Positions 2,698 to 64,000 of a DNA stretch of 64,000 nt are shown here, piece after piece (within the stretch, counting starts at the first letter, position 1; every line of letters starts with the position of its first letter). Location of the stretch: assembly GCA_001780165.1 (NCBI GenBank), contig MFFQ01000026.1, positions 10,113-74,112 on the forward strand. Reading direction: 5' to 3'. Made by a program: the position numbers and the translations under genes. The DNA is from Candidatus Eisenbacteria bacterium RBG_16_71_46 (GTDB lineage: Bacteria; Eisenbacteria; RBG-16-71-46). The notes under the pieces were generated by a model. It did not search any database and was not told where the DNA came from. It worked only from the letters and a program-made list of their open reading frames with translations.

Positions 2698-4174
2698 GGC
2701 GCTCGGGCACCTGCGCCGCGACGCGGTGATCTACGGCTTCGGCCAGGCGCTGGGCCGCGGCGTGCAGTTCCTGCTGGTGCCGATCTTCACCCGCGCGCTG
2801 CTCCCCGAGGTCTACGGGGTGGCCGACCTGGTGCTCGCCTATTCGCAATTCGTGGTGCTGGTGCTGGTGTTCGGCATGGACGGGGCGCTGGTGCGCTTCT
2901 TCTACCAGGAGCCCGACCGCGACGCGCGCCGCCGCATGGTGTCCACCTCGCTCGCCTGGCGGATCGGGAGCGGCGTGCTGTTCTCGCTGCTGTTCGTGGT
3001 GCTCAGCCGCTCGATGGCGGGCTCGCTCATCGGCTCCGAGGTCTACCGCAAGTACGTGACGATCGGCGCGCTCACGCTGCCGTTCTCGCTGCTGGTGCTG
3101 TTCTCCAACGACGTGCTGCGGGTGACGTTCCAGCCCTGGAAGTTCATCGCCCTCAATACCCTGCAGGCGGTGGTGACGGCCGCGCTGTCGTGGTGGCTGG
3201 TGGTGCCGCGCGACATCGGCGTGGCGGGGGTGCTCTACGGCAAGCTCGGCGGCGACGCGGTGGCGGCGCTGGCCGGACTGGCGCTCATCCGGCTCAACCT
3301 GACGCCGCGCCTGAGCCTCCGGGCGCTCGCCCGGATGCTCGCCTTCGGCTGGCCGTTGGTGCCCACCGCCTTCGCCTACGGTGTGATCTCCGCCGCCGAT
3401 CGCTTCTTCCTGCAACGCACGCGCAGCCTGGAGGAGGTCGGCGTCTACGCCGTGGCGGTCAAGTTCTTCTCGGCCGCCATGCTCGGGGTCTCGGCCTTCT
3501 CGCTCGCCTTCTTTCCCTTCGCCCACGCCCGGGCGCACGAGCCGGAGGCACCCCGGCTCTACGCGCGCGTGCTCGCGCTCTACGTCTCGCTCGGGAGCCT
3601 GGCCGCGATGCTGGTGGGGCTCTTCGCCCCCGAGGCGCTCGCCGTGCTGGTGCCGCCCGGCTACCGCGAGGCGGCGCGGCCGGCGCTGGTGCTCGGCTTT
3701 GCGGCGGTCGCCTACGGCGCTTACTATGTCGCCTGTCTCGGCGTGCAGCTGGCGCTCAAGACCCCGCACCTGATCTGGACCGCGCTGGCCGGCGCCGTGG
3801 TGGCGATCGGGGCCAACGTGGTGGCGACGCCACGGTACGGGGTCATGGGCGCGGCGGTGGCGACGCTGGCCGGCAACGTGGCGCTTGCGGTGCTCACCTA
3901 CGCGGTGTCGCAGCGCGTGTACCGGCTGCCGTATCGCGGTGCGAGGCTGGTGGCGCTGTACGCCGTCGCGGTGATCCTCGCCTGGCTGGGCCAGACGCTG
4001 GCGCCCGAGGGCGCCACGGGCGCGGCGATCAAGCTCGGTTTGGGCCTGCTGTTCGCGGTGCTGTGCGTGGCGGTGGGGATCTGGACCGAATGGGGGTCGG
4101 TGGGGAGCCCGGTCGGGGAGGGTGGGCCCCCCGGTCCGCCGGCGTCCAGGGCGATGGGCGGGCCCTCCGACTAG
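2681..4174 (+). CDS. Polysaccharide-unit flippase, Wzx-like (MOP/MATE superfamily).
   Basis: About 12 predicted TM helices. The N-terminus (GFGQALGRGVQFLLVPIFTRAL) matches the PST/Wzx family. Confidence 0.75.
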   Translation: MRRVREALGHLRRDAVIYGFGQALGRGVQFLLVPIFTRALLPEVYGVADLVLAYSQFVVLVLVFGMDGALVRFFYQEPDRDARRRMVSTSLAWRIGSGVLFSLLFVVLSRSMAGSLIGSEVYRKYVTIGALTLPFSLLVLFSNDVLRVTFQPWKFIALNTLQAVVTAALSWWLVVPRDIGVAGVLYGKLGGDAVAALAGLALIRLNLTPRLSLRALARMLAFGWPLVPTAFAYGVISAADRFFLQRTRSLEEVGVYAVAVKFFSAAMLGVSAFSLAFFPFAHARAHEPEAPRLYARVLALYVSLGSLAAMLVGLFAPEALAVLVPPGYREAARPALVLGFAAVAYGAYYVACLGVQLALKTPHLIWTALAGAVVAIGANVVATPRYGVMGAAVATLAGNVALAVLTYAVSQRVYRLPYRGARLVALYAVAVILAWLGQTLAPEGATGAAIKLGLGLLFAVLCVAVGIWTEWGSVGSPVGEGGPPGPPASRAMGGPSD

Positions 4175-4188
4175 AAAGGACGCTGGAG

Positions 4189-6243
4189 ATGTGCGGGATT
4201 GCGGGGATGCTCGATCGCGGAGGCCGCGCGGACCTCGGCCGGCTGCAGCGCATGTCCACGCTGTTGCGCCACCGCGGACCGGATGACGAGGGCATCGTGC
4301 TGCTCGACGCCCGCAGCGGCGCGTGGCTGACCCTGGGCGGGGCGGACACGCCCGCCGACGGCTACGCCAGTGCGGTGCGCTACGCCCCGGGGCGCCACGA
4401 CGGCGACATCGCGCGCGCCAGCTACGGGGTCGGGCTCGCGCACCGGCGATTGTCGATCGTGGACCTGAGCCCGTCCGGCCACCAGCCGATGAGTCGCGCC
4501 GACGGCCGCAGCTGGATCGTGTACAACGGAGAGATCTACAACCACGTCGAGCTGCGCGCCGAGCTCGAGGGGCTGGGCGAGCGATTCGTCAGCAGCAGCG
4601 ACACCGAGGTGATCCTCGCCGCGTACCGCCGTTTCGGGCGCGGCTGCCTGGCGCGGTTCAACGGCATGTTCGCCTTCGCGCTGTGGGACGGCGAGCGGCG
4701 CGAGCTGTTGTGCGCGCGCGACCGGCTGGGGATCAAGCCCTTCTACTACCAGTACGACGGCGAGCGTTTCGTCTTCGCCTCGGAGCCGCGCGCGCTGGTC
4801 CTCACCCAGCCGCGCCGCATCGCGCCGCGCCTCGAGGCGGTGCGCGATCTGGTGGCGCTCGACTGGGTGGACCACGAGGCGCACACCTTCTTCGAAGGGC
4901 TGTTCCAGCTGCCGGCGGGACACGCGCTCACCGTGGGGGAGCAGGGCTTCGCCGTCCACCGCTGGTGGGAGCTGGATCCCTCGGCCAGCGCGCCGGGCGA
5001 TCCCGAGGACTGGGACCGCGAGTTCGAGCGCCTGTTCACCGATGCCGTGCGGCTGCGGCTGCGCGCGGACGTCGAGGTCGGCTCCTGCCTGTCGGGCGGG
5101 CTGGACTCCACCGCGGTGGTGACCACCGCCGCGCGGCTGGCCACGCGGCCGCTCCACACCTTCACCTGCGCCTACGAAGAGGGTCCCGCCTTCGACGAGC
5201 GGCCTTACATGCGCGCCGCGGTCGAGGCCAGCCGCGCCGCCTCGCACGTGGTGATCCCGGACGGCGCGGACTTCTGGAGCGTCTTCGACCGGCTCGCCGA
5301 GCATCAGGCCGAGCCCACCGCCGGGCCGGGGCTCTACTCGCAGTGGAAGGTGATGGAGCTGGCGCACGAGGCCGGACTCAAGGTGCTGCTCGACGGCCAG
5401 GGCGGCGACGAGACCCTGGCCGGCTATCCCCGCTACCTGCCGCTGCGCCTGCGCGACCTGCTCGCCGGCGCGCGGCTGATCTCGTTCGCGCGCCTGTTCG
5501 GCCCGGTCGCCGCGCGACTCGGCGCCACCACCACCCTGGCACTCGCGCTGGAGCCCTGGCTGCCGCCCGCGGTCGTGGCGCCGCTGCGGCGGCGTTTCGG
5601 TCAAGGGAAGGACCGCGTGCTCTCCCCCACGCTGCGCGCGCTGGAGCGCGGTGCGTTGCCGCGGCCGCCGGGCGGCTTCCGCACCGCGGTCGCGCGACAG
5701 ATGGCGTTCGATGCCCGGCAGCGCCTGCTCCCCTCGCTGCTCCGCTACGAGGACCGCAACAGCATGGCGTTCTCGATCGAGACCCGGCTGCCGTTCCTGG
5801 ACTACCGCCTGGTCGAGTTCGCCTTCTCGCTCAGGGACGGCGTCAAGCTCGAAGGGGCGACGACCAAGGCGATCCTGCGCCGCGCACTCGGCGACCGCAT
5901 CCCGCGCGCGGTGCTCGAGCGCCAGGACAAGATGGGTTTCGAGACCCCCACCGACGTCTGGCTGCGCAGCCGCTTCGCCGGAGAGGTGCGCCGGCGATTG
6001 CTCACGCCGGGGCCGCTCCACGAGTGGCTGGATCCCAAGACGCTGGGCGCGGAGCTCGAGGACTACCTCGCCGACCGGCGCGCGATCGGGCTTCAGGTGT
6101 GGCGCTGGCTCTCGCTCGATGCCTGGGCGCGACGTTTCCTCGAACGCGACCCCCGGGTGGCCGAGCGCGCGCCCGAGATCCCCCTCCACGCGGGAAGGCA
6201 CCAGTCCTACGTCGAGGTGATGCGCGCGCTGCAGGGCGCCTAG
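4189..6243 (+). CDS. asnB: Asparagine synthase (glutamine-hydrolysing), AsnB family amidotransferase.
   Basis: The N-terminus is MCGIAG, the Ntn glutaminase motif. The central region has the PP-loop motif SGGLDS. GGAG lies 8 nt upstream of the ATG. The 3190..6243 track ORF is an N-terminally over-extended version of this gene. Confidence 0.85.
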   Translation: MCGIAGMLDRGGRADLGRLQRMSTLLRHRGPDDEGIVLLDARSGAWLTLGGADTPADGYASAVRYAPGRHDGDIARASYGVGLAHRRLSIVDLSPSGHQPMSRADGRSWIVYNGEIYNHVELRAELEGLGERFVSSSDTEVILAAYRRFGRGCLARFNGMFAFALWDGERRELLCARDRLGIKPFYYQYDGERFVFASEPRALVLTQPRRIAPRLEAVRDLVALDWVDHEAHTFFEGLFQLPAGHALTVGEQGFAVHRWWELDPSASAPGDPEDWDREFERLFTDAVRLRLRADVEVGSCLSGGLDSTAVVTTAARLATRPLHTFTCAYEEGPAFDERPYMRAAVEASRAASHVVIPDGADFWSVFDRLAEHQAEPTAGPGLYSQWKVMELAHEAGLKVLLDGQGGDETLAGYPRYLPLRLRDLLAGARLISFARLFGPVAARLGATTTLALALEPWLPPAVVAPLRRRFGQGKDRVLSPTLRALERGALPRPPGGFRTAVARQMAFDARQRLLPSLLRYEDRNSMAFSIETRLPFLDYRLVEFAFSLRDGVKLEGATTKAILRRALGDRIPRAVLERQDKMGFETPTDVWLRSRFAGEVRRRLLTPGPLHEWLDPKTLGAELEDYLADRRAIGLQVWRWLSLDAWARRFLERDPRVAERAPEIPLHAGRHQSYVEVMRALQGA

Positions 6244-6386
6244 GCTCCGTTTGAAAACGCCCGGGGGCAAGGCGTCGCGGTCGCGCGAGGACGACCGTGG
6301 CCGACCACGCTGCGCGTGGTGCCCGGCCACGTCGGAGCGAGGAGCCGACCGCGCAACGTAGCCCTCGGGCGTTTTCGAACGGAGCC
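6243..6386. repeat. Palindromic repeat element, family A, copy 1, in inverted orientation relative to copies 2 and 3.
   Basis: The terminal inverted repeats are AGGCTCCGTTTGAAAACGCCCG and its complement CGGGCGTTTTCGAACGGAGCCT. An internal hairpin reads CGTGGCCG...CGGCCACG. The conserved core GGGCAAGGCGTCGCG is shared with 40308-40454 and 56518-56647. Confidence 0.85.
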
Positions 6387-6388
6387 TC

Positions 6389-7516
6389 GTGGACCTGGTC
6401 GTCCTGTCGGAAGTGCGCTGGAGCTACTTCCGCACCCGCAAGCAGTTCCTGCTGTCGCGCTTCCCCGAGCGCTGGCGCGTCTTCTACGCCCAGCCCCCCG
6501 CGGCGGGGACGGACGACCCGTGGCGAGCGCGGCGCGAGGGGCGCGTCACCTACTTCACGGTGCCGTTTCTCAAGCCCGGCACCACCCAGCCGCTGTACAA
6601 CCGGCTGATGCGGGCCGGCGCGGCGCGCGCCACGGTCGAGCGCTGCGCCGAATCCTGGCTGCGCCTGATGCTGGCGCGGCTCGGGGTCGAGCCGCGACCG
6701 GTGGTGCTGGCGTCCAACATCTACTGCCCCGGAGCGCTTTCGCGGCTGCCCCGGAAGTTGTTATTCTACGACTTCAATGACAGCCCACTGCAGTTCGCCG
6801 GGGTGCCGGCCTGGGCCCCGGACTACTGGCGCCGCACCCGCGACCAGGTGGACGCGTTCTTCGTCGTGTCCGAGTACTACCGGCGCGAACTGAGCGCGCA
6901 GACGCGGAGGCCCGTGATCCTGCTCGGTAACGGCGTCGAGGTCGACCACTTCCAGGCCCCGCGGGCGGTTCCGCCCGAGTTGGCGTCCCTGCCGCGCCCG
7001 CTCATCGGTTACGTCGGCCTGCTCTCGCATTTCCTCGATTTCGAGACGCTCGAGGCCCTGCGCCAGGCGCGCCGCGGCGGCACGCTGGTCCTGGTCGGCC
7101 CCGGCACCCCGGCCACCGACGCCGCGGTGCGGGAGCTGGCCGGGCGCGAGGGGGTGGCGGTCCTGGGCCCCAGGCCCTATGCGGAGATCCCGGCCACCAT
7201 GCAGGCCCTGGACGTCGGGGTCATTCCTTTTCGGGCGAACGATCCCTTCGTGCAGGGTATCAATCCCAATAAGGTCTACCAGTACCTCGCCTCCGGCCTT
7301 CCCGTGGTAACCACCCCGGTGCTCGATCTCGAACCCCGCCCTCCGCACCTTCAGTTCGCCGCCGGGCCCGCCGCGATGCGGGCGGCGGTGGAGCGGGCGC
7401 TGGACGCACCGCCGGATCGCGCGGCCCGCGTGGCGCTGGCCCGCTCCCACGATTGGGGAGGGCTCGCGAGCCGGATGGTCGAGGAGATCGAGCGGCGGAT
7501 CCCCGCGGCCGGCTGA
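6389..7516 (+). CDS. Glycosyltransferase family 1/4 (TuaH-like).
   Basis: GT-B fold with GYVGLLSHFLDFE and VIPF...NPNKVYQYLASGLPVV. The GTG start is 2 nt after repeat copy 1. Confidence 0.7.
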   Translation: MDLVVLSEVRWSYFRTRKQFLLSRFPERWRVFYAQPPAAGTDDPWRARREGRVTYFTVPFLKPGTTQPLYNRLMRAGAARATVERCAESWLRLMLARLGVEPRPVVLASNIYCPGALSRLPRKLLFYDFNDSPLQFAGVPAWAPDYWRRTRDQVDAFFVVSEYYRRELSAQTRRPVILLGNGVEVDHFQAPRAVPPELASLPRPLIGYVGLLSHFLDFETLEALRQARRGGTLVLVGPGTPATDAAVRELAGREGVAVLGPRPYAEIPATMQALDVGVIPFRANDPFVQGINPNKVYQYLASGLPVVTTPVLDLEPRPPHLQFAAGPAAMRAAVERALDAPPDRAARVALARSHDWGGLASRMVEEIERRIPAAG

Positions 7517-18085: not shown

Positions 18086-18538
18086 ATGTCGTCCTTCTAC
18101 GGCGGAGAGATCCACGCGATCGACCACAAGGGTCGCGTCAGCATCCCCGCGACGCTGCGTCGCGCCGAGGGGAAGCGGACGTCGATCCCGCGGTTCTTTC
18201 TCGCGCCCGGCTTCGACGGCTGTCTCGCGCTCTACAGTCCCGAAGGATGGAACAAGATCGAGGAGCAGCTGCAGGCGCTGCCGCTGGGGGACCGCGAAGC
18301 CCGCGCCTTCCAGCGCGCCTTCCTGCGCCACGTGTGCAAGGTGGCGGTGGATGCACAGGGACGGATCACCATCCCACCGTCGCTGCTGAGCCTTGCGGGT
18401 TTGGGCAAGGAAGCCCTCCTGCAAGGCTTGATGAATCGCATCGAGATCTGGAACCCCGAGCGCTTCACCGGCGAATCGGATGCGGTCGAAGGCAAGCTCG
18501 AGGACATGGCGGCGCGGGTGATCGGAGGCCGGTCGTGA
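18086..18538 (+). CDS. mraZ: Transcriptional regulator MraZ.
   Basis: Two DXXXR-type MraZ repeats (IDHKGRVSIP and DAQGRITIP). Its position at the head of the dcw cluster is typical. Confidence 0.9.
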   Translation: MSSFYGGEIHAIDHKGRVSIPATLRRAEGKRTSIPRFFLAPGFDGCLALYSPEGWNKIEEQLQALPLGDREARAFQRAFLRHVCKVAVDAQGRITIPPSLLSLAGLGKEALLQGLMNRIEIWNPERFTGESDAVEGKLEDMAARVIGGRS

Positions 18539-54046: not shown

Positions 54047-54463
54047 ATGTCCAGCCAAAAACTGGTGCGTTGCGAGTTGCGTCCCCGGGGAAAGAACGCG
54101 CCGGGCTCCCCGCGCTACATCCCGCTCGAGATCTTCGGTCTCTGGGAATACATGATGAGCACCAAACACGCCTTCGAGGTGCTCGACGCCCGGGCCTCGC
54201 TGTGGCTGGACATGGAAGACTCTCCGGAGGCGGCTTACAGCGCGGGCCAATACGAGCGGGTGACCGAGGTCACGGCGTTCGTCTATTCGGGCCGCGACGA
54301 GATGTTCACCCGGGCCTGCCGCTACTTCCCCTCGGAGCAGATCGACCACCTCAAGCCGATCTTCCTCTCCCACTACCAGGACAATGGTTCCAGGCTCCAG
54401 ACCCAAGTGCGCGAGCGCGTGGGGATCTGGCTCCACCGCGACTCCACCACGACCACGATCTGA
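54047..54463 (+). CDS. Hypothetical protein.
   Basis: 138-aa ORF with GGGAGGA 7 nt upstream of the ATG. No recognisable motif. About 410 nt of non-coding sequence with GC-rich hairpins follows it. Confidence 0.4.
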   Translation: MSSQKLVRCELRPRGKNAPGSPRYIPLEIFGLWEYMMSTKHAFEVLDARASLWLDMEDSPEAAYSAGQYERVTEVTAFVYSGRDEMFTRACRYFPSEQIDHLKPIFLSHYQDNGSRLQTQVRERVGIWLHRDSTTTTI

Positions 54464-54875
54464 ACACCCCGGTGGGGCCCAACCCCCGCCCGCATGCCCG
54501 CTTGCGCCGCCGGCCTCCCGGCCGGGAGCACCACGGCGAGCCGCCCCCCCGGGGGGCGTCGCCCGCGCCAGCCCTCCGGAATTCGCTGAAGGCCGTCTTT
54601 CTGCCCGCCGATACACCGCGCGAAGGATGGTGCCCGCGTGGCGTCGAGCGGGGGGGCCTGCGGCGCCCCCGCTTCGGAGCGCGACGCCGGGCGCTCGCAC
54701 AGGAGATGCGCGACCCCATCCGGTGCGTGAGGGCTCGATCGGGCCTCGTGCGTCAGGCATGGGTGCCGTCGAACGGTTCGATCCACCTTCGAAGTACCTT
54801 TGGAGAAAGGGCGGCAAGGGGCTCCATGGGAATCCGCTTCGTGACAGGGTGGGGTCGCACAGGGAGGAACACACC

Positions 54876-55970
54876 GTGGTCGTGGTGAGCTATTCGGGCA
54901 AGGAGATCAACGCCAAGCTGGTGTACTACGGCGCCGGCCTGAGCGGGAAGACCACTAACCTCGAAGCCATCTACGAGGCTGTGCCCGAGACCAGCCGCGG
55001 CAAGATGGTGAGCATGAAGACACAGTCGGATCGCACCCTGTTCTTCGACCTGCTTCCGCTGGACCTGGGCGAGATCATGGGGTTCAAGACGCGCTTCCTG
55101 CTGTACACGGTCCCCGGGCAGGTGTTCTACAACGCCACCCGCAAGCTGGTGCTCAAGGGGTCGGACGCCATCGTGTTCGTCGCCGACAGCGAAGTCGGCA
55201 AGATGGAGGAGAACAAGGAGAGCCTCGCCAACCTGCGCGCGAACCTGGCCGAGTACAACCTCAGCCTCGATCAGATCGCCTGGGTGATCCAGTACAACAA
55301 GCGCGACCTCCCGAACGTGTACACGATCGAGGAGCTGAACGCCGAGCTCAATCCGGGCGGCAAGGTGCCGTTCTTCGAGGCCGTGGCCACCCAGGGCAAG
55401 GGCGTGTTCGAAACCTTCCGCGGAATCTCCCACATGCTGATGGAGAAGGTGACGCGGGACCTGCGGCGGGCCCCCGGGGGCTCCGGCTCGCGGCCGACGC
55501 ACCCGGCCGCCGAGGCCCCGGCTCCGCCCGCCCGTCATGCCCAAGCCGCCGCACCGTCCGCGCCAGGGCACGTGATCGCCCGCGAGGCCTTCCAGAGCCC
55601 GGCGTTCGAGGAGAACGGCTCCGAGCAGGTGGACTACGGTCGCGAGATCGAGCTGCCGGAGGAGATTCCGGCGCCGCGCGCGAGCGCCGCACCGCGGGCC
55701 CAGGCCGCTCCCCCGGCGGCGCCCGCCGCGCCCGCGCCGGTCCGCGAGCCCAGCCGGCCGGCGCCGCGCGCCGCGGTGGCGACGCCCCACGCCCCTGCGC
55801 CGCCGGCGCCCCAGGCTCAGGCGCCCGCAGCGCGCCCACGGCCCTCGATCGAGGCGCTGGCCCGCGTCGAGGCCGAGGCGCGGAGCGACGCAGTGGTGGT
55901 TCCGATCACGATTCCGCGCGGCACCTCGCGCGAGATCGTGCTGCGGATCGTCATCAGCGACGGCGAGTAG
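54876..55970 (+). CDS. MglA-like Ras-superfamily small GTPase with a Pro/Ala-rich C-terminal extension.
   Basis: The N-terminal ~190 aa align with MglA (SYSGKEINAKLVYYGAGLSGKTTNLEAIYE, TVPGQVFYNATRKL and NKRDL are the G1, G3 and G4 motifs). Next comes a ~130-aa PA-rich low-complexity segment, then a ~35-aa C-terminal domain. GTG starts 7 nt after GGGAGGA. Confidence 0.7.
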   Translation: MVVVSYSGKEINAKLVYYGAGLSGKTTNLEAIYEAVPETSRGKMVSMKTQSDRTLFFDLLPLDLGEIMGFKTRFLLYTVPGQVFYNATRKLVLKGSDAIVFVADSEVGKMEENKESLANLRANLAEYNLSLDQIAWVIQYNKRDLPNVYTIEELNAELNPGGKVPFFEAVATQGKGVFETFRGISHMLMEKVTRDLRRAPGGSGSRPTHPAAEAPAPPARHAQAAAPSAPGHVIAREAFQSPAFEENGSEQVDYGREIELPEEIPAPRASAAPRAQAAPPAAPAAPAPVREPSRPAPRAAVATPHAPAPPAPQAQAPAARPRPSIEALARVEAEARSDAVVVPITIPRGTSREIVLRIVISDGE

Positions 55971-56062: not shown

Positions 56063-56518
56063 ATGCGCCACTCGACTCTGCTCGCGGCACCCGTCCTGAT
56101 GATCGCCCTCGCGCTGCTCGCGGGACCCACGGCGGCGCAGTCGCCGCTCGGCATGCCCGCGCTCGGCGCGTACTCGCCCAGAGTCCCGGTGACCGGACTC
56201 GGCCTCGCGAGTTGGTTCGACCCCTCGCGCCTCCATCTGTCCACGTCGGTGAGCGTGGGCACGGGCTTCGGCGGCGGCGCCCAGGGGCTGCAGGTCACCA
56301 GCCTGAACTACCAGTTCCGCGCGCCGATGACGATGAGCGTGAGTCTCGGCAACGCCCTCGGCGGCCCCGCCGGCGCCCGTGGCTCCTCGATCTTCCTCGA
56401 GGGCCTGCGCATGGCCTACCAGCCGAGCCCGTCGATGCTCTTCCAGATCCGCTACCAGGATCTCCGCTCGCCGCTGCAGTACCAGTCCTCACCGTACGAT
56501 CCCTTCCGGTTCCACTAG
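56063..56518 (+). CDS. Small secreted protein with a signal peptide (hypothetical).
   Basis: MRHSTLLAAPVLMIALALLAGPTAAQSP looks like a Sec signal peptide with an AXA site. A promoter-like TTGACT-17-TACCTT lies upstream. Confidence 0.45.
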   Translation: MRHSTLLAAPVLMIALALLAGPTAAQSPLGMPALGAYSPRVPVTGLGLASWFDPSRLHLSTSVSVGTGFGGGAQGLQVTSLNYQFRAPMTMSVSLGNALGGPAGARGSSIFLEGLRMAYQPSPSMLFQIRYQDLRSPLQYQSSPYDPFRFH

Positions 56519-60277: not shown

Positions 60278-60410
60278 GTGGGACGTGGTGGAGCGGTCCA
60301 AGGCGCATCCCCCATGCGTGTGGAGCCCCCGAAAGGCTAGCAGTCGCGGGGGTCGTGTCAAGCCGCAGTCGCGGCATGGACGCGGCGGCGGGTTGAGGCT
60401 ATTCTCGGCT

Positions 60411-60437
60411 TAAGTAGCTGGCAGTTCTTGCCGATAC
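60411..60437 (+). promoter_or_regulatory. Candidate sigma28 (FliA/SigD)-type promoter upstream of csrA.
   Basis: TAAG, 15 nt, then GCCGATAC. Compare the consensus TAAA-N15-GCCGATAA. It lies about 55 nt upstream of csrA. Confidence 0.45.
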
Positions 60438-60492
60438 GCTGACTGTCCACAGGCGATGCGCGCCCGGACCCCGGAGCGGAGGACGCTTCACC

Positions 60493-60720
60493 ATGCTGGT
60501 CCTAACAAGGAAGTTAGGCGAAAACATCCGGATCGGAGATTCGGTGAAGATCACCGTGCTGGAAGTGCGCTCGGGCCAGGTGAAGCTCGGCATCGAAGCG
60601 CCGCCCGAGGTGAAGGTGCATCGCGAGGAAATCTATGCCCGGATCCAGGAAGAAAATCGGCGGGCGGAGCGGCAGAAGGCCGAGGGTGGAGCCGCGCCGA
60701 CCAAGGAGCCGGACAAGTAG
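60493..60720 (+). CDS. csrA: Carbon storage regulator CsrA.
   Basis: [25 protein letters not shown]...GIEAP is the canonical CsrA sequence. Length 75 aa. Confidence 0.95.
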
Positions 60721-60820
60721 GGGCACGACGGCCCCGGGTCAGGTGCCGCATTCAGGTGCCGGCCCGCGTGGAGAGCGGCAGGGACGCGTGCGGCGCGCGG
60801 GTGAACGTTCGAGGGGAGCC

Positions 60821-61024
60821 ATGACGGCGACACAGCGTGCGCGTCGCAGCGACCGCCGAGCGGGTGGCGAGCTGACGCGTTGGGTCAAGCCCGGCGACCC
60901 GGGTCGCGTGCGTTGGAATCGCGTGCTCACCGCTCAGGCCCGCATGGCCAGCGGCTACTACGAGCGCCCCGATGTGCGCGAATGTCTGGTGGACGCGATC
61001 ATGGCGGAGCTCGCCCGACACTAG
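60821..61024 (+). CDS. flgM: Anti-sigma-28 factor FlgM-like.
   Basis: The C-terminus ASGYYERPDVRECLVDAIMAEL matches the conserved FlgM sigma28-binding helix pattern (G-x-Y-x-V-D-x3-A-x2-M). GAGGGGAG lies upstream. The start may be further upstream (GTG). Confidence 0.5.
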   Translation: MTATQRARRSDRRAGGELTRWVKPGDPGRVRWNRVLTAQARMASGYYERPDVRECLVDAIMAELARH

Positions 61025-61102
61025 AGCCCCGCCCGCCATGCTGCCCGCGGCGGGCTTCGGCGTTTGCACTCGATTGCTATACTGCGCGCCCATGGAGCGT
61101 GC

Positions 61103-62329
<1,227 letters not shown>

Positions 62330-64000
62330 CGACGAGCGCTCGATCCGCTTCGGGATCGGCGAGTGGGCGCGGGACGCCGGCTTCCAGGCGCTCGAGGCCG
62401 CGAGCGGGCGGGAGGCGCTCGATCGCCTCCGCGACCAGTCGGTGGACATCGTGGTGCTCGACCTGCGGCTCGGCGACATGGACGGCCTCCAGGTGCTCAA
62501 GCGCCTGCGCGAGGAGGACGCCAACGTCCCGATCATCATGCTGAGCGCCCACGCCACTTTCGATCACGTCGTGCAGGCGGTGAAGTCGGGGGCCTTCTGG
62601 TTCCTGCCCAAGCCGCTCGACACCGAGCAGCTCGCGGCGCTGGTGGACCGCGCGCTCGAGAACGCGCGCCTCAAGCGCGAGGTGGAGCTTCACCGCCGCG
62701 AGCGGTCCCAGCCCCTGATCGGCGAGAGCGCCGGGCTCAAGCGCGCCCTCCAGCGCCTCGAAAAAGCCGGGCGCAGCGGCACCGCCACCGTGCTCATCCA
62801 GGGCGAGACGGGCTCGGGCAAGGGGCTGCTGGCGCGCTACCTCCACGCGCACAGCGCTCGCGCCAAGGGCCCGTTCGTGGAGCTCAACTGCAGCGCGATT
62901 CCCGAGCAGTTGCTCGAGAGCGAGCTCTATGGGCACGAGAAGGGCGCGTTCACCGACGCCAAGCGCTTCCGCAAGGGGCTCTTCGAGCTGTCCGACGGCG
63001 GCACGCTGTTCCTCGACGAGATCGGGGAGATGACCCCGGGGCTCCAGGCCAAGCTGCTCCACGTGCTCGAGACCCGCACCTTCCGGCGGGTCGGCGGCGC
63101 CCACGACATCACCGTGGACGTGCGCGTGATCGCCGCCACCCATCGCGATCTCCCCCGCGCGGTGGCCGAGAACCGCTTCCGCGAGGACCTCTACTTCCGC
63201 CTCAACGTCGTGCCGATCGAGGTGCCGGCGCTGCGCGAGCGGCGCGACGACATCCCGGCGCTGTGCGGACACTTCATCGCCCATTTCTGCCGCGAGCTCG
63301 GGCGGCCCGCGGCAACCCTCCACCCCGCGGCGCTCAAGGCGCTGGTGGACTACCCCTGGCCGGGCAACGTGCGCGAGGTGAAGAACGTCATCGAGCGCGT
63401 GGTGCTGCTCGAGGCCGAGGACGAGATCCGCCTCGAGCACTTGCCGCCCGAGGTGCATCGCCAGAAGAGTGCGGCCACCGGCGGTGAGGCGTTCCCGGCC
63501 GGGGTCGTGCGCCCGCTGGCCGAGATCGAGAAGCTGGCGATCGAGCACGCGCTCCGCGTGTGCGATGGCAACAAGACGCGCGCCGCGCAGCTACTCGGCA
63601 TCTCGCGCCAGACCCTGCGCACCAAGCTCAAGGATTACTCGCTGGGCGACGATACCGAAGAGGGAGCCGAAACCGCCTGAGTTCCGGCCGGGCGCACCGC
63701 CGTCCCCGGCGGTGCCGCCGTCGCCCCGTCCCGGCCGGCGGCGACCAGCTTCGTTCCGGGTTTGCGGTCGGGCGGAACGAGCTTGGGCGGGCGAATTGCA
63801 AACGGCTTTCCCGGTTTGTGCACGGTCCGGGCGGAATGGTGGCCCCGGGGGAGGGCTGCGGCCCGTCGCCGGCGTGACCACCGCGCGCCGCTAAACCCCG
63901 TTCCTGCAAACTGAATGGCCGCCCCGTCCTGGGGCGCTCGCCGCTCCCCCAGAAGCTCCACCGCGCCGCTCCCGGCGCGTGGCGCGCGTGCCGTTTTCCC

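What the first reader, a model, noticed from the sequence alone, without database searches (positions are those of the whole stretch)
54876..55970. MglA-like small GTPase with a long Pro/Ala-rich tail, a short C-terminal domain and no adjacent mglB.
The first ~190 aa are collinear with the motility/polarity GTPase MglA, including the same 17-residue lead-in before the P-loop. The protein then continues for ~170 aa. The extension has a PAPxAP-rich low-complexity segment and a conserved-looking final ~35 aa (IEALARVEAEARSDAVVVPITIPRGTSREIVLRIVISDGE). The upstream neighbour (54047-54463) is not a Roadblock/LC7 (MglB) protein. A ~410-nt GC-rich structured non-coding stretch precedes the gene. This is an atypical MglA paralogue, perhaps tethered or localised through its tail.
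Basis: partly seen in the sequence, partly recalled or inferred. Interest (0 to 1): 0.55.

Follow-up and report, generated by a model that had tools for sequence, protein, structure and literature searches.

The report
Long-tailed MglA GTPase with regulatory leader
This is a real, widely conserved variant of the bacterial polarity GTPase MglA that carries a long flexible tail ending in a small conserved module, and its gene sits behind a motility-type (sigma-28) promoter and a previously uncatalogued structured RNA leader.

Summary
The ORF 54876-55970 (+) is real: GTG start, Shine-Dalgarno 8 nt upstream, 364 aa. Residues 1-192 are a catalytically complete MglA, aligned without gaps to Thermus MglA (E 1e-72, 59% identity).

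The ~170-aa tail is not read-through. 98 of 100 full-length orthologues (322-452 aa) keep the frame and end in the same module (VVPVxLPxGxxxEIVxRIV). Two further conserved islands lie between Pro/Ala-rich linkers. The tail occurs only fused to MglA. It is found in Candidatus Eisenbacteria, Latescibacteria and Krumholzibacteriia.

No mglB lies within 10 kb here or in about 30 syntenic genomes, and the upstream 138-aa protein shows no Roadblock similarity.

The 410-nt spacer contains two features:
- A sigma-28 (FliA/WhiG)-type promoter at 54587-54614. The same promoter type precedes csrA plus an FlgM-like ORF 5 kb downstream.
- A ~150-nt three-way-junction RNA at 54710-54858, ending 3 nt before the Shine-Dalgarno. 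It has strong covariation, no Rfam match, and precedes this gene in all 116 testable metagenomic copies.

Best reading: an orphan MglA-type switch whose tail acts as a tether or docking device, expressed as a late motility-regulon gene under translational control by the leader. Verdict: new variant of a known kind. The tail's role, the RNA's ligand and whole-genome absence of mglB remain untested.

The parts
54047..54463 (+). Conserved 138-aa protein, Eisenbacteria-restricted, always immediately upstream. Not Roadblock-like by any test run. Probably a separate transcription unit, because the sigma-28-type promoter lies between it and mglA.
   Evidence: Syntenic in ~30 loci at 57-76% identity (38-41% in the divergent L027 and L032). 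634 homologues, all ~138 aa, no Pfam. AF2 model pLDDT 87 with bbabbbab topology. Foldseek PDB found nothing.
54587..54614 (+). Sigma-28 (FliA/WhiG)-type promoter: TGAAG-N15-GCCGATAC. The inferred transcription start is ~54622.
   Evidence: A block conserved in position across loci. The strict pattern T-N-AAG-N15-GCCGATA gives 120 hits in 1.07 Mb of loci: 76 upstream of this gene, ~30 upstream of csrA. GCCGATA occurs only twice in the window, both as this promoter type. Consensus GCCGATAA / TCTAAAG is taken from PMC12784957.
54710..54858 (+). Structured leader RNA, a three-way junction. P1 54710-54721 pairs with 54847-54858. P2 is a variable hairpin domain, 54722-54787. P3 54789-54794 pairs with 54837-54844. 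P4 is 54797-54830, with an invariant 16-nt loop AAAGGGCGGCAAGGGG at 54806-54821.
   Evidence: 93.6% of cells paired against 44-56% in slid controls; 14 pairs with compensatory changes; covariation above 500/500 shuffles. The same holds on 91 distinct sequences, with a P3 pair at AU:44 / GC:44. The covariance model hits once in the window, at 116 bits. No Rfam match at E<=1. Coordinates.
54862..54867 (+). Shine-Dalgarno GGGAGG, 3 nt after the 3' strand of P1 and 8 nt before the start codon.
54876..55970 (+). CDS of the extended MglA (364 aa, GTG start, stop included).
54876..55451 (+). MglA GTPase domain (aa 1-192). It carries the P-loop GAGLSGKT, Arg53, Thr54, T78-V-P-G-Q82 and N141-K-R-D144.
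   Evidence: PDB matches 3t12 and 5ymx. All of these residues are invariant in 29 orthologues.
55548..55589 (+). Tail island 1 (aa 225-238, consensus APPxAPxxAIxREA).
   Evidence: Column conservation in 96 non-redundant orthologues.
55632..55658 (+). Tail island 2 (aa 253-261, DYGREIELP).
   Evidence: Y254 and G255 are 90-92% conserved, L260 93%. Y, G, R and E are invariant in the 18-sequence tail alignment.
55893..55955 (+). C-terminal module (aa 340-360, VVVPITIPRGTSREIVLRIVI). The residue pattern suggests two short beta-strands around a Gly turn.
   Evidence: Present at the end of 98/100 orthologous ORFs whose tails vary greatly in length. Pro343 is invariant; E353 and I354 are 93-94% conserved. 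It aligns with the C-termini of the Latescibacteria and Krumholzibacteriia proteins.
56063..56518 (+). Conserved downstream ~150-aa protein with an N-terminal signal-peptide-like segment. Possibly co-transcribed; function unknown.
   Evidence: Syntenic in ~30 loci at 35-61% identity. No Pfam or NCBIfam hit. No terminator-like site between it and mglA.
60410..60437 (+). Second sigma-28-type promoter (TTAAG-N15-GCCGATAC), 56 nt upstream of csrA.
   Evidence: 30 of 36 csrA loci have the same promoter type.
60493..61024 (+). csrA (60493-60720) followed by a 67-aa FlgM-like ORF (60821-61024).
   Evidence: CsrA matches Pfam at 3e-26. Of 16 homologues of the small ORF, 5 weakly match Pfam FlgM (best E 0.0035), and FlgM is the only family hit more than once.

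Best explanation
The gene encodes a catalytically complete MglA-type (Group 1) Ras-like switch GTPase. It has been permanently fused to a ~170-residue, mostly disordered Pro/Ala-rich tail. The tail carries three short conserved elements: AIxREA, DYGREIELP, and a terminal module whose residue pattern suggests a ~21-residue beta-hairpin.

I propose that the tail is a flexible tether with docking motifs. It would hold the GTPase at, or bring partners to, a fixed cellular site. This is the job that separate proteins (MglB, RomR/RomX, TPR effectors) do for the single-domain MglA proteins.

Expression is wired into a sigma-28 (FliA/WhiG) late-motility-type regulon, shared with csrA and an FlgM-like gene. 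A gene-specific ~150-nt three-way-junction RNA adds a further control layer. Its closing helix ends 3 nt before the Shine-Dalgarno, so it most likely controls translation initiation.

Shown: the GTPase identity, the conservation and exclusivity of the tail, the conserved promoter-like block, and the RNA structure.

Inferred: use of sigma-28, translational control, the docking role of the tail, and the link to flagellar rather than other motility.
For: GTPase. PDB MglA matches at E 1e-72 and 9e-70, gap-free. P-loop, Arg53, Thr54, Thr78, Gln82 and NKRD are invariant.

Tail is real and constrained:
- More than 120 database homologues of 319-481 aa; most cover 99-100% of the query, the rest match over a shorter stretch.
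- 98/100 ORFs from independent contigs keep frame and C-terminal module although linker lengths differ by more than 100 residues.
- Three conservation islands in 96 sequences.
- GC3 of 0.90 in the tail.

Tail is specific to this GTPase. A tail-only profile against 1.84 billion representatives gave 86 hits. All 16 inspected are MglA-tail proteins or N-truncated fragments of them.

Tail is old. The same architecture and C-terminal module occur in Latescibacteria and Krumholzibacteriia.

Orphan status. No MglB was found.

Promoter:
- The conserved T-N-AAG-N15-GCCGATA pattern is almost restricted to this gene and csrA.
- A FliA/WhiG sigma (TIGR02479, E 1e-41 on a partial sequence) is encoded ~10 kb downstream, after a MinD/FlhG-like ATPase, in relatives.
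- An FlgM-like ORF follows csrA.

RNA. Searches (covariation; single copy; 116/116 testable metagenomic copies precede this gene by 47-56 nt; P1 abuts the Shine-Dalgarno).
Against: - No partner of the tail is known, and no structure of it was obtained. The AlphaFold run on the full protein failed (pLDDT 49).
- No flagellar structural gene was seen in any sequence I hold. FliA/WhiG-family sigmas also drive non-flagellar programmes (WhiG).
- The -35/-10 spacer is one nucleotide longer than in the P. aeruginosa fliC promoter.
- The P4 stem top and loop are invariant, so they give no covariation evidence.
- The single-sequence fold is not more stable than shuffles (z -0.89).
- An RNA tied to one gene only is more typical of a protein-binding leader than of a metabolite riboswitch.
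- Absence of mglB from the whole genome is untested.
Confidence: 0.55

Rival explanations
1. The tail is an in-cis regulator of the nucleotide cycle, not a tether. The C-terminal module or the DYGREIELP island would fold back on the GTPase domain. It would either autoinhibit, or substitute for the missing MglB (GAP) or RomR/RomX (GEF). It might be released in one nucleotide state, as the N-terminal helix of Arf is released by the interswitch toggle.
For: No MglB within 10 kb in any locus. The tail is never found apart from this GTPase, as expected for an intramolecular partner. The GTPase surface is almost invariant within the clade. That MglA undergoes an Arf-like beta-strand register shift comes from my own knowledge of the Thermus structures, not from a test here.
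Against: The Arg finger and catalytic Gln are intrinsic and intact, so no catalytic residue needs to be supplied. A 100-200-residue variable linker is long for a purely intramolecular latch. No structural prediction supports docking (one search failed).
Confidence: 0.2
2. The leader RNA is not a small-molecule riboswitch. It would be a binding site for a protein: autoregulation by the GTPase or its tail, CsrA, or another factor. Alternatively it is simply a stabilising or processing structure.
For: The motif is tied to a single gene family in all 116 testable metagenomic copies, the pattern of ribosomal-protein-type leaders. csrA is co-regulated by the same promoter type 5 kb away. GGA-containing sequences lie at the Shine-Dalgarno.
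Against: The invariant P4 loop (AAAGGGCGGCAAGGGG) has no GGA in a loop context as CsrA prefers. A three-way junction with conserved junction residues (YGA between P3 and P1) is also typical of ligand pockets. Neither option was tested.
Confidence: 0.3
3. The promoter belongs to a WhiG-like developmental or otherwise non-flagellar programme. The protein would then work on type IV pili or gliding as in Myxococcus, or in cell division or development. The flagellar link would be spurious.
For: No flagellar structural gene was seen in the window or in the loci. The sigma matches WhiG models as well as FliA models. The Latescibacteria/Krumholzibacteriia orthologues use a sigma-54 promoter, which also drives pilin genes in other bacteria (own knowledge), and they sit next to a TPR protein.
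Against: The combination of a MinD/FlhG-like ATPase directly followed by the FliA/WhiG sigma, csrA, an FlgM-like ORF and a sigma-54 response regulator is the usual flagellar regulatory set.
Confidence: 0.2
4. The tail is a neutral low-complexity expansion or a gene-calling artefact with no function.
For: The linkers are 50% Pro+Ala and vary freely in length and sequence.
Against: Frame and C-terminal module are kept in 98/100 ORFs. Three islands are conserved across phyla. GC3 is coding-like.
Confidence: 0.03

Closest known systems
MglA of Myxococcus xanthus / Thermus thermophilus (Group 1 MglA; Wuichet & Sogaard-Andersen 2015, PMC4316618)
   Same: The G domain is 57-59% identical and gap-free. 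It has the same P-loop, intrinsic Arg53, Gln82, Thr78 in place of the G3 Asp, and NKRD.
   Different: It is 364 aa rather than ~195, with a C-terminal disordered tail carrying conserved motifs. There is no neighbouring mglB. It has a sigma-28-type promoter and a structured leader.
Orphan MglA-family GTPases: SofG (M. xanthus) and Bdellovibrio MglA
   Same: They are MglA-family members without a coupled MglB. PMC4316618 lists 59 such orphans. SofG also has extensions (own knowledge). The Bdellovibrio MglA works with a TPR protein, and the Latescibacteria orthologues here sit next to a TPR gene.
   Different: This tail has no counterpart in those proteins as far as tested: the tail-only profile finds only this family. 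I did not compare directly with the SofG sequence.
Eukaryotic Ras/Rho/Rab hypervariable region plus C-terminal anchor; bacterial FtsZ C-terminal linker plus C-terminal peptide
   Same: The design is the same: a conserved nucleotide-binding domain, a variable disordered linker, and a short conserved terminal element that docks the protein to a membrane or partner (own knowledge).
   Different: There is no sequence relationship and no lipidation box. The terminal element here looks like a beta-hairpin, not a helix or CAAX motif. The analogy concerns how it may work, not family membership.
Sigma-28 (FliA) late flagellar promoters
   Same: The -10 element GCCGATAC matches 7 of 8 positions of GCCGATAA. 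The -35 element TGAAG matches 4 of 5 positions of TAAAG.
   Different: The spacer is one nucleotide longer than in Pa fliC. Use by sigma-28 was not tested. The regulated gene is a Ras-like GTPase, which is not a known member of flagellar regulons to my knowledge (searches found none).
Translational riboswitches and structured 5' leaders
   Same: It lies in the 5' UTR. It is a three-way junction with covarying helices and conserved junction and loop nucleotides, and its closing helix lies next to the Shine-Dalgarno.
   Different: It matches none of the 4227 Rfam families. It is tied to a single gene. The ligand or binding factor is unknown.

Membership tests
MglA family, Group 1 | Ras-like P-loop GTPase domain with G1-G5 motifs, collinear with solved MglA structures | tested here: met
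   3t12 at E 1.1e-72 and 5ymx at E 8.6e-70, residues 3-192. GAGLSGKT and NKRD are invariant.
MglA family, Group 1 | Thr in place of the conserved Asp of G3 (TxxGQ) and catalytic Gln82 | tested here: met
   Y77-T78-V-P-G-Q82, invariant in 29 orthologues. The Thr78 hallmark is described in PMC3000849 (abstract).
MglA family, Group 1 | Intrinsic arginine finger (Arg53) | tested here: met
   D52-R53-T54 are invariant and aligned to the same positions of the Mx and Tt MglA proteins. The role of the intrinsic Arg and Gln is described in PMC4316618.
MglA family, Group 1 | Coupled to an MglB (Roadblock/LC7) gene within four genes (390 of 449 MglA proteins) | tested here: not met
   No MglB-like ORF in the window or 46 loci. 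No Robl_LC7 within +-10 kb. It therefore falls in the 'orphan' class of PMC4316618. Whole genomes were not searchable.
MglA family, Group 1 | Single-domain protein of ~195 aa | tested here: not met
   364 aa here; orthologues range from 322 to 452 aa.
MglB / Roadblock-LC7 (for the upstream 138-aa protein) | Robl_LC7 sequence signature or Roadblock fold | tested here: not met
Sigma-28 (FliA/WhiG)-dependent promoter | -10 GCCGATAA and -35 TAAAG at the proper spacing, conserved in position | tested here: inconclusive
   GCCGATAC and TGAAG, with a spacer one nucleotide longer than Pa fliC. Conserved in at least 76 loci and repeated upstream of csrA in 30/36. Transcription was not tested.
Sigma-28 (FliA/WhiG)-dependent promoter | Cognate sigma factor encoded by the organism | tested here: met
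   In relatives only: L167 20436-20960 matches TIGR02479 FliA_WhiG at E 1.1e-41 on a partial protein. The window ends before that position.
Cis-regulatory structured RNA (riboswitch-like) | Conserved secondary structure supported by compensatory changes, in a 5' UTR | tested here: met
   P2 and P3 have 4 pairs each with double changes. 91.5-93.6% of cells are paired, against 43-56% in slid controls.
Cis-regulatory structured RNA (riboswitch-like) | Membership of a described RNA family | tested here: not met
   No Rfam 15 match at E<=1.
Cis-regulatory structured RNA (riboswitch-like) | Specific ligand binding that changes expression | not testable with these tools
   Needs in-line probing and reporter assays.

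The most novel reading that the evidence does not exclude
A Ras-like polarity GTPase has been recruited into a flagellar-type (sigma-28 in Eisenbacteria, sigma-54 in Latescibacteria/Krumholzibacteriia) motility regulon. It does without MglB because its own tail supplies localisation and/or nucleotide-state-dependent docking. Its synthesis is gated by a new class of riboswitch sensing a motility-related signal such as a guanine nucleotide or cyclic dinucleotide.
Probability: 0.2. Interest if true: 0.85.

Novelty: new variant of a known kind. Interest (0 to 1): 0.62.

Why it matters
MglA is the model for how bacteria set and switch cell polarity. All studied cases are single-domain proteins steered by separate GAP, GEF and adaptor proteins.

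This finding shows a whole branch of uncultured soil phyla in which the switch carries its own conserved tail, lacks a neighbouring GAP, and is wired to sigma-28 or sigma-54 promoters. That gives concrete, testable sequences for three questions:
- How can a small GTPase be localised without MglB or RomR?
- Does MglA-type polarity control extend to flagellar systems?
- What does the new leader RNA sense?

The leader is a well-supported candidate for a new cis-regulatory RNA family: about 100 distinct examples, clear covariation, and no Rfam match.

Tried and rejected
- AlphaFold on the full protein with 29 orthologues gave pLDDT 49, even for the GTPase domain.
- Pfam and NCBIfam on the tail alone found nothing. 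A PDB profile search with the C-terminal module found nothing at E<=10.
- A single-sequence fold of the leader is not better than shuffles (z -0.89) and recovers only P1. The structure rests on comparative evidence.
- RNAalifold on the raw MAFFT alignment missed P3 because of a 2-nt indel. This was fixed by a curated alignment in which the P2 interior was masked.
- I considered that the leader might be a small upstream ORF, because the frame is open back to 54384 and one database entry starts upstream. I rejected this for three reasons: P2 lengths differ by non-multiples of 3, all codon positions of the core are invariant, and the helices covary.
- I considered the upstream 138-aa protein as a cryptic MglB and rejected it.
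- The FlgM guess for the 67-aa ORF got only weak support (5/16 members, best E 0.0035). There was no NCBIfam hit and no PDB hit.
- Literature searches for extended MglA, MglA with flagella, or an mglA riboswitch found nothing relevant.
- A flagellar survey supplement lists Eisenbacteria only as a tree label.
Complete Eisenbacteria chromosomes therefore could not be searched for mglB, romR/romX or flagellar genes.
Full report
**The observation**

The window is ~72% G+C. The ORF reported at 54876-55970 (+) is present. The frame stays open upstream to 54384. The true start is nevertheless the GTG at 54876. It is preceded by GGGAGG at 54862-54867, and every orthologue begins with the same VVVVSYSGKEIN.

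Residues 3-192 align without a gap to T. thermophilus MglA (3t12, E 1.1e-72). They align with one gap to M. xanthus MglA (5ymx, E 8.6e-70). Identity is 59% and 57%. Pfam gives only a sub-threshold Arf hit.

The catalytic set is complete and invariant among 29 orthologues:
- P-loop G19-x-G21-x-x-G24-K25-T26
- D52-R53-T54 (the intrinsic arginine finger)
- T78-V-P-G-Q82 (the MglA-specific Thr in G3, and the catalytic Gln)
- N141-K-R-D144

**The tail is real**

The protein database returned more than 120 homologues of 319-481 aa; most cover 99-100% of the query and the rest match over a shorter stretch. From the loci I collected, 100 ORFs of 322-538 aa could be read through to their stop. Of these, 98 end in the same module, hVVPVxLPxGxxxEIVhRIxh, although tail lengths differ by more than 100 residues. 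The two exceptions look like frameshifted assemblies.

In 96 non-redundant sequences the tail shows three conservation islands. These are aa 225-238 (APPxAPxxAIxREA), aa 253-261 (DYGREIELP) and aa 340-360. Linkers between them vary freely. The window's linker region is 50% Pro+Ala and 10% hydrophobic. GC3 of the tail is 0.90, as in coding DNA of this genome.

Only the last ~21-25 residues are conserved.

**Lineage and age**

The genome collection places the family in Candidatus Eisenbacteria MAGs. The upstream neighbour is 98% identical to a protein of Ca. Eisenbacteria RBG_19FT_COMBO_70_11.

MglA genes of Latescibacteria and Krumholzibacteriia MAGs also encode 450-529-aa proteins. They have Pro/Ala-rich linkers and a C-terminus (…VRVAVPLVLTRAQLEGGAPIRVVLDIKIVD) that aligns with the Eisenbacteria module, including the invariant Pro. 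A Chloroflexia MglA picked up in the same scan is a normal 194-aa protein.

A profile of the tail alone was searched against 1.84 billion representative proteins. It found 86 proteins. The 16 I inspected are all MglA-tail proteins or N-terminally truncated fragments of them. The tail is therefore specific to this GTPase lineage and predates the split of these phyla.

**No MglB nearby**

The M. xanthus MglB sequence, confirmed identical to PDB 6h5b, finds nothing at E<=10 among all six-frame ORFs of at least 70 aa in the window and 46 loci. Precomputed Pfam annotation of +-10 kb around three orthologues shows no Robl_LC7. The small ORFs of the window that I scanned are MraZ, L28, a GT2, an AHSA1-like protein and CsrA. 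No second mglA is in the window.

The upstream 138-aa protein is syntenic in about 30 loci. It has 634 homologues of the same length, all without Pfam domains. Its AlphaFold model (pLDDT 87, but only two of five models agree) has no Foldseek match in the PDB. It is not a recognisable Roadblock protein.

By the definition of Wuichet & Sogaard-Andersen (coupled means within four genes; PMC4316618), this is an orphan Group 1 MglA. Whether mglB exists elsewhere in the genome could not be tested.

**Gene order**

The order is conserved across Eisenbacteria:
- GT4 glycosyltransferase (reverse strand)
- lipid A-type acyltransferase (reverse strand)
- the 138-aa protein
- the extended mglA
- a ~150-aa signal-peptide protein
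- trpA
- a PDZ-SpoIIE phosphatase (reverse strand)
- csrA and a 65-67-aa ORF
- a PAS histidine kinase and a sigma-54 response regulator
- a receiver protein and two small ORFs
- a MinD/FlhG-like ATPase
- a sigma factor

The sigma factor, read from L167, matches FliA/WhiG (TIGR02479, E 1.1e-41 on the first 175 residues). Five of 16 homologues of the small ORF after csrA weakly match Pfam FlgM, the only family hit more than once.

**The 410-nt spacer, part 1: the promoter**

Aligning the upstream regions of 30 loci showed a conserved block about 260 nt before the start codon. Its consensus is gAAttcCnnT(C/G/A)AAG-N15-GCCGATA(A/C/G). In the window it is TGAAG-N15-GCCGATAC at 54587-54614.

GCCGATA occurs only twice in the window. 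The other copy is TTAAG-N15-GCCGATAC at 60410-60437, 56 nt upstream of csrA.

In 1.07 Mb of collected loci the strict pattern occurs 120 times, 76 times before this gene and about 30 times before csrA. My estimate from base composition is ~0.1 expected by chance. Of 36 csrA loci, 30 carry it.

GCCGATAA with TCTAAAG is the sigma-28 consensus (PMC12784957). The spacer here is one nucleotide longer than in P. aeruginosa fliC. With a FliA/WhiG sigma and an FlgM-like ORF in the same neighbourhood, I infer that mglA-ext and csrA are transcribed by a sigma-28-family holoenzyme. The start would be near 54622, giving a 5' UTR of ~254 nt. This is inference from conserved consensus matches, not a demonstrated promoter.

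**The 410-nt spacer, part 2: the leader RNA**

Between 54710 and 54858 lies a conserved structure. Its parts are:
- P1: GCGACCCCAUCC pairs with GGGUGGGGUCGC (54710-54721 with 54847-54858).
- P2: a hairpin domain of two size classes, 19-27 nt or 41-66 nt (54722-54787).
- P3: UCGAAG pairs with CUUCG(UG)A (54789-54794 with 54837-54844).
- P4: CCUUUGGAG pairs with CUCCAUGGG, closing an invariant 16-nt loop AAAGGGCGGCAAGGGG (54797-54830).
- A conserved YGA in the P3-P1 junction.

On a curated 26-sequence alignment, 93.6% of cells form pairs, against 44-56% when partners are slid by 1-3 columns. Fourteen pairs show changes on both sides. The covariation score exceeds all 500 shuffles.

On 91 distinct sequences aligned by a covariance model the result holds. 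One P3 pair is AU in 44 and GC in 44 sequences, and the P2 pairs show 3-5 pair types. That alignment was fitted to the model, which favours the structure. The outer three pairs of P1 are poorly supported. The upper P4 stem and its loop never vary and so are uninformative.

The model finds one copy in the window (116 bits). It finds none in divergent Eisenbacteria or in the Latescibacteria/Krumholzibacteriia loci. In all 116 with enough downstream sequence, the extended mglA starts 47-56 nt later.

No Rfam family matches at E<=1. The 3' strand of P1 ends 3 nt before the Shine-Dalgarno, and no terminator-like site follows. Control of translation initiation is therefore the most likely mode. The ligand or binding factor is unknown.

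**How it most likely works**

*Shown:*
- The protein is a complete MglA switch.
- Its tail is conserved, disordered-looking, and carries three short constrained elements.
- It occurs without a neighbouring GAP.
- A conserved sigma-28-type promoter-like block and a conserved, covarying RNA precede it.

*Inferred:* the tail acts as a tether with docking motifs. The design is that of FtsZ's linker plus C-terminal peptide, or of the hypervariable region plus anchor of eukaryotic small GTPases. It would fix the switch at a site or recruit partners. The gene would be produced late in a motility programme together with CsrA, and the leader would set how much is translated.

The main rival for the tail is an intramolecular regulator replacing MglB or RomR/RomX. 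The main rival for the RNA is a protein-binding leader. The main rival for the regulon is a non-flagellar WhiG-like programme.

I saw no flagellar structural gene. The regulatory set (FlhG-like ATPase directly followed by FliA/WhiG, csrA, an FlgM-like ORF, a sigma-54 regulator) is the usual flagellar one, but this is circumstantial.

**Comparison with what is known**

It passes every sequence test for Group 1 MglA. It fails two descriptive features: single domain, and coupling to MglB. I file it as an orphan, extended Group 1 MglA, not as a new family.

PMC4316618 describes orphans (SofG, Bdellovibrio MglA) but no such tail. Full-text searches found no paper on an extended MglA, on MglA under sigma-28, or on an mglA leader RNA. 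The leader is a candidate new RNA family.

**Verdict**

The finding is a new variant of a known kind, with an unexpected regulatory context. Interest is 0.62. It would be higher if the tail's partner or the RNA's ligand were identified. It is limited because function is inferred entirely from sequence in uncultured organisms.

Noticed in passing
L034-L041 (e.g. L035 5800-6000; L038 3640-3815): The extended mglA of Latescibacteria and Krumholzibacteriia is preceded by an invariant sigma-54-type promoter (TTGGCATGCTACTTGC). A different, highly conserved ~105-nt leader follows, with a long GC-rich closing stem (GCCGGGGCGGCC pairing with GGCCGCYCCGGC). There is no Rfam match. With only 6-8 near-identical sequences there are no compensatory changes, so the structure is unproven.
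   Followed up: partly
L035 7713-8825; L038 5611-6723: A conserved 370-aa TPR protein lies directly downstream of the extended mglA in Latescibacteria and Krumholzibacteriia. This recalls the MglA-TPR partnership described for Bdellovibrio (PMC3983030, title and abstract only).
   Followed up: no
window 60410-61024: csrA (60493-60720) has the same sigma-28-type promoter as mglA. It is followed by a 67-aa ORF (60821-61024) whose conserved C-terminus (RVxxAxxRIAxGYYDRxDVRxxLvxAvLxEL) weakly matches FlgM in 5 of 16 homologues.
   Followed up: partly
window 54047-54463: A 138-aa protein family (634 members, Eisenbacteria only) has conserved Cys9/Cys91 and several Trp/His residues. Its predicted topology is a duplicated beta-beta-alpha-beta unit with no PDB fold match. 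It is always upstream of the extended mglA. Function unknown.
   Followed up: partly
window 54384-54875: The mglA reading frame is open for 164 codons upstream of the true start, an effect of high G+C. At least one database entry (P0033, 481 aa) is called from an upstream start and translates part of the leader RNA (…LWRKGGKGLHG…).
   Followed up: yes
L016 1-1720: Two copies of the leader plus the mglA 5' part lie in inverted orientation at a contig end (141-725 + and 1592-1008 -). This is probably an assembly artefact.
   Followed up: no
L045 (OY970342.1) 4000-7100: This long-read chromosome shows split tblastn matches (apparent frameshifts) in the acyltransferase, the 138-aa gene and mglA itself. 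These are likely indel errors. It also differs in gene order from the window upstream of the glycosyltransferase.
   Followed up: no
L001 8853-8879 (-) and the same place in L008, L009, L017, L019, L047: A third recurrent match to the T-N-AAG-N15-GCCGATA pattern lies on the minus strand, at the 3' end of the SpoIIE phosphatase gene, pointing toward trpA. Whether it is a promoter or a coding coincidence is unknown.
   Followed up: no
window 61064-63680 and L047 16172-21182: A PAS histidine kinase plus a sigma-54-dependent response regulator (FlbD and FlgR models are among its hits) lie downstream of csrA. A receiver protein, a MinD/FlhG-like ATPase and a FliA/WhiG sigma follow. This is a flagellar-type regulatory cluster, although no structural flagellar gene was seen.
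   Followed up: partly
window 18086-18538: mraZ, and thus presumably the division/cell-wall cluster, lies ~36 kb upstream. Relatives have ftsZ, L28 and recG between it and the mglA region.
   Followed up: no
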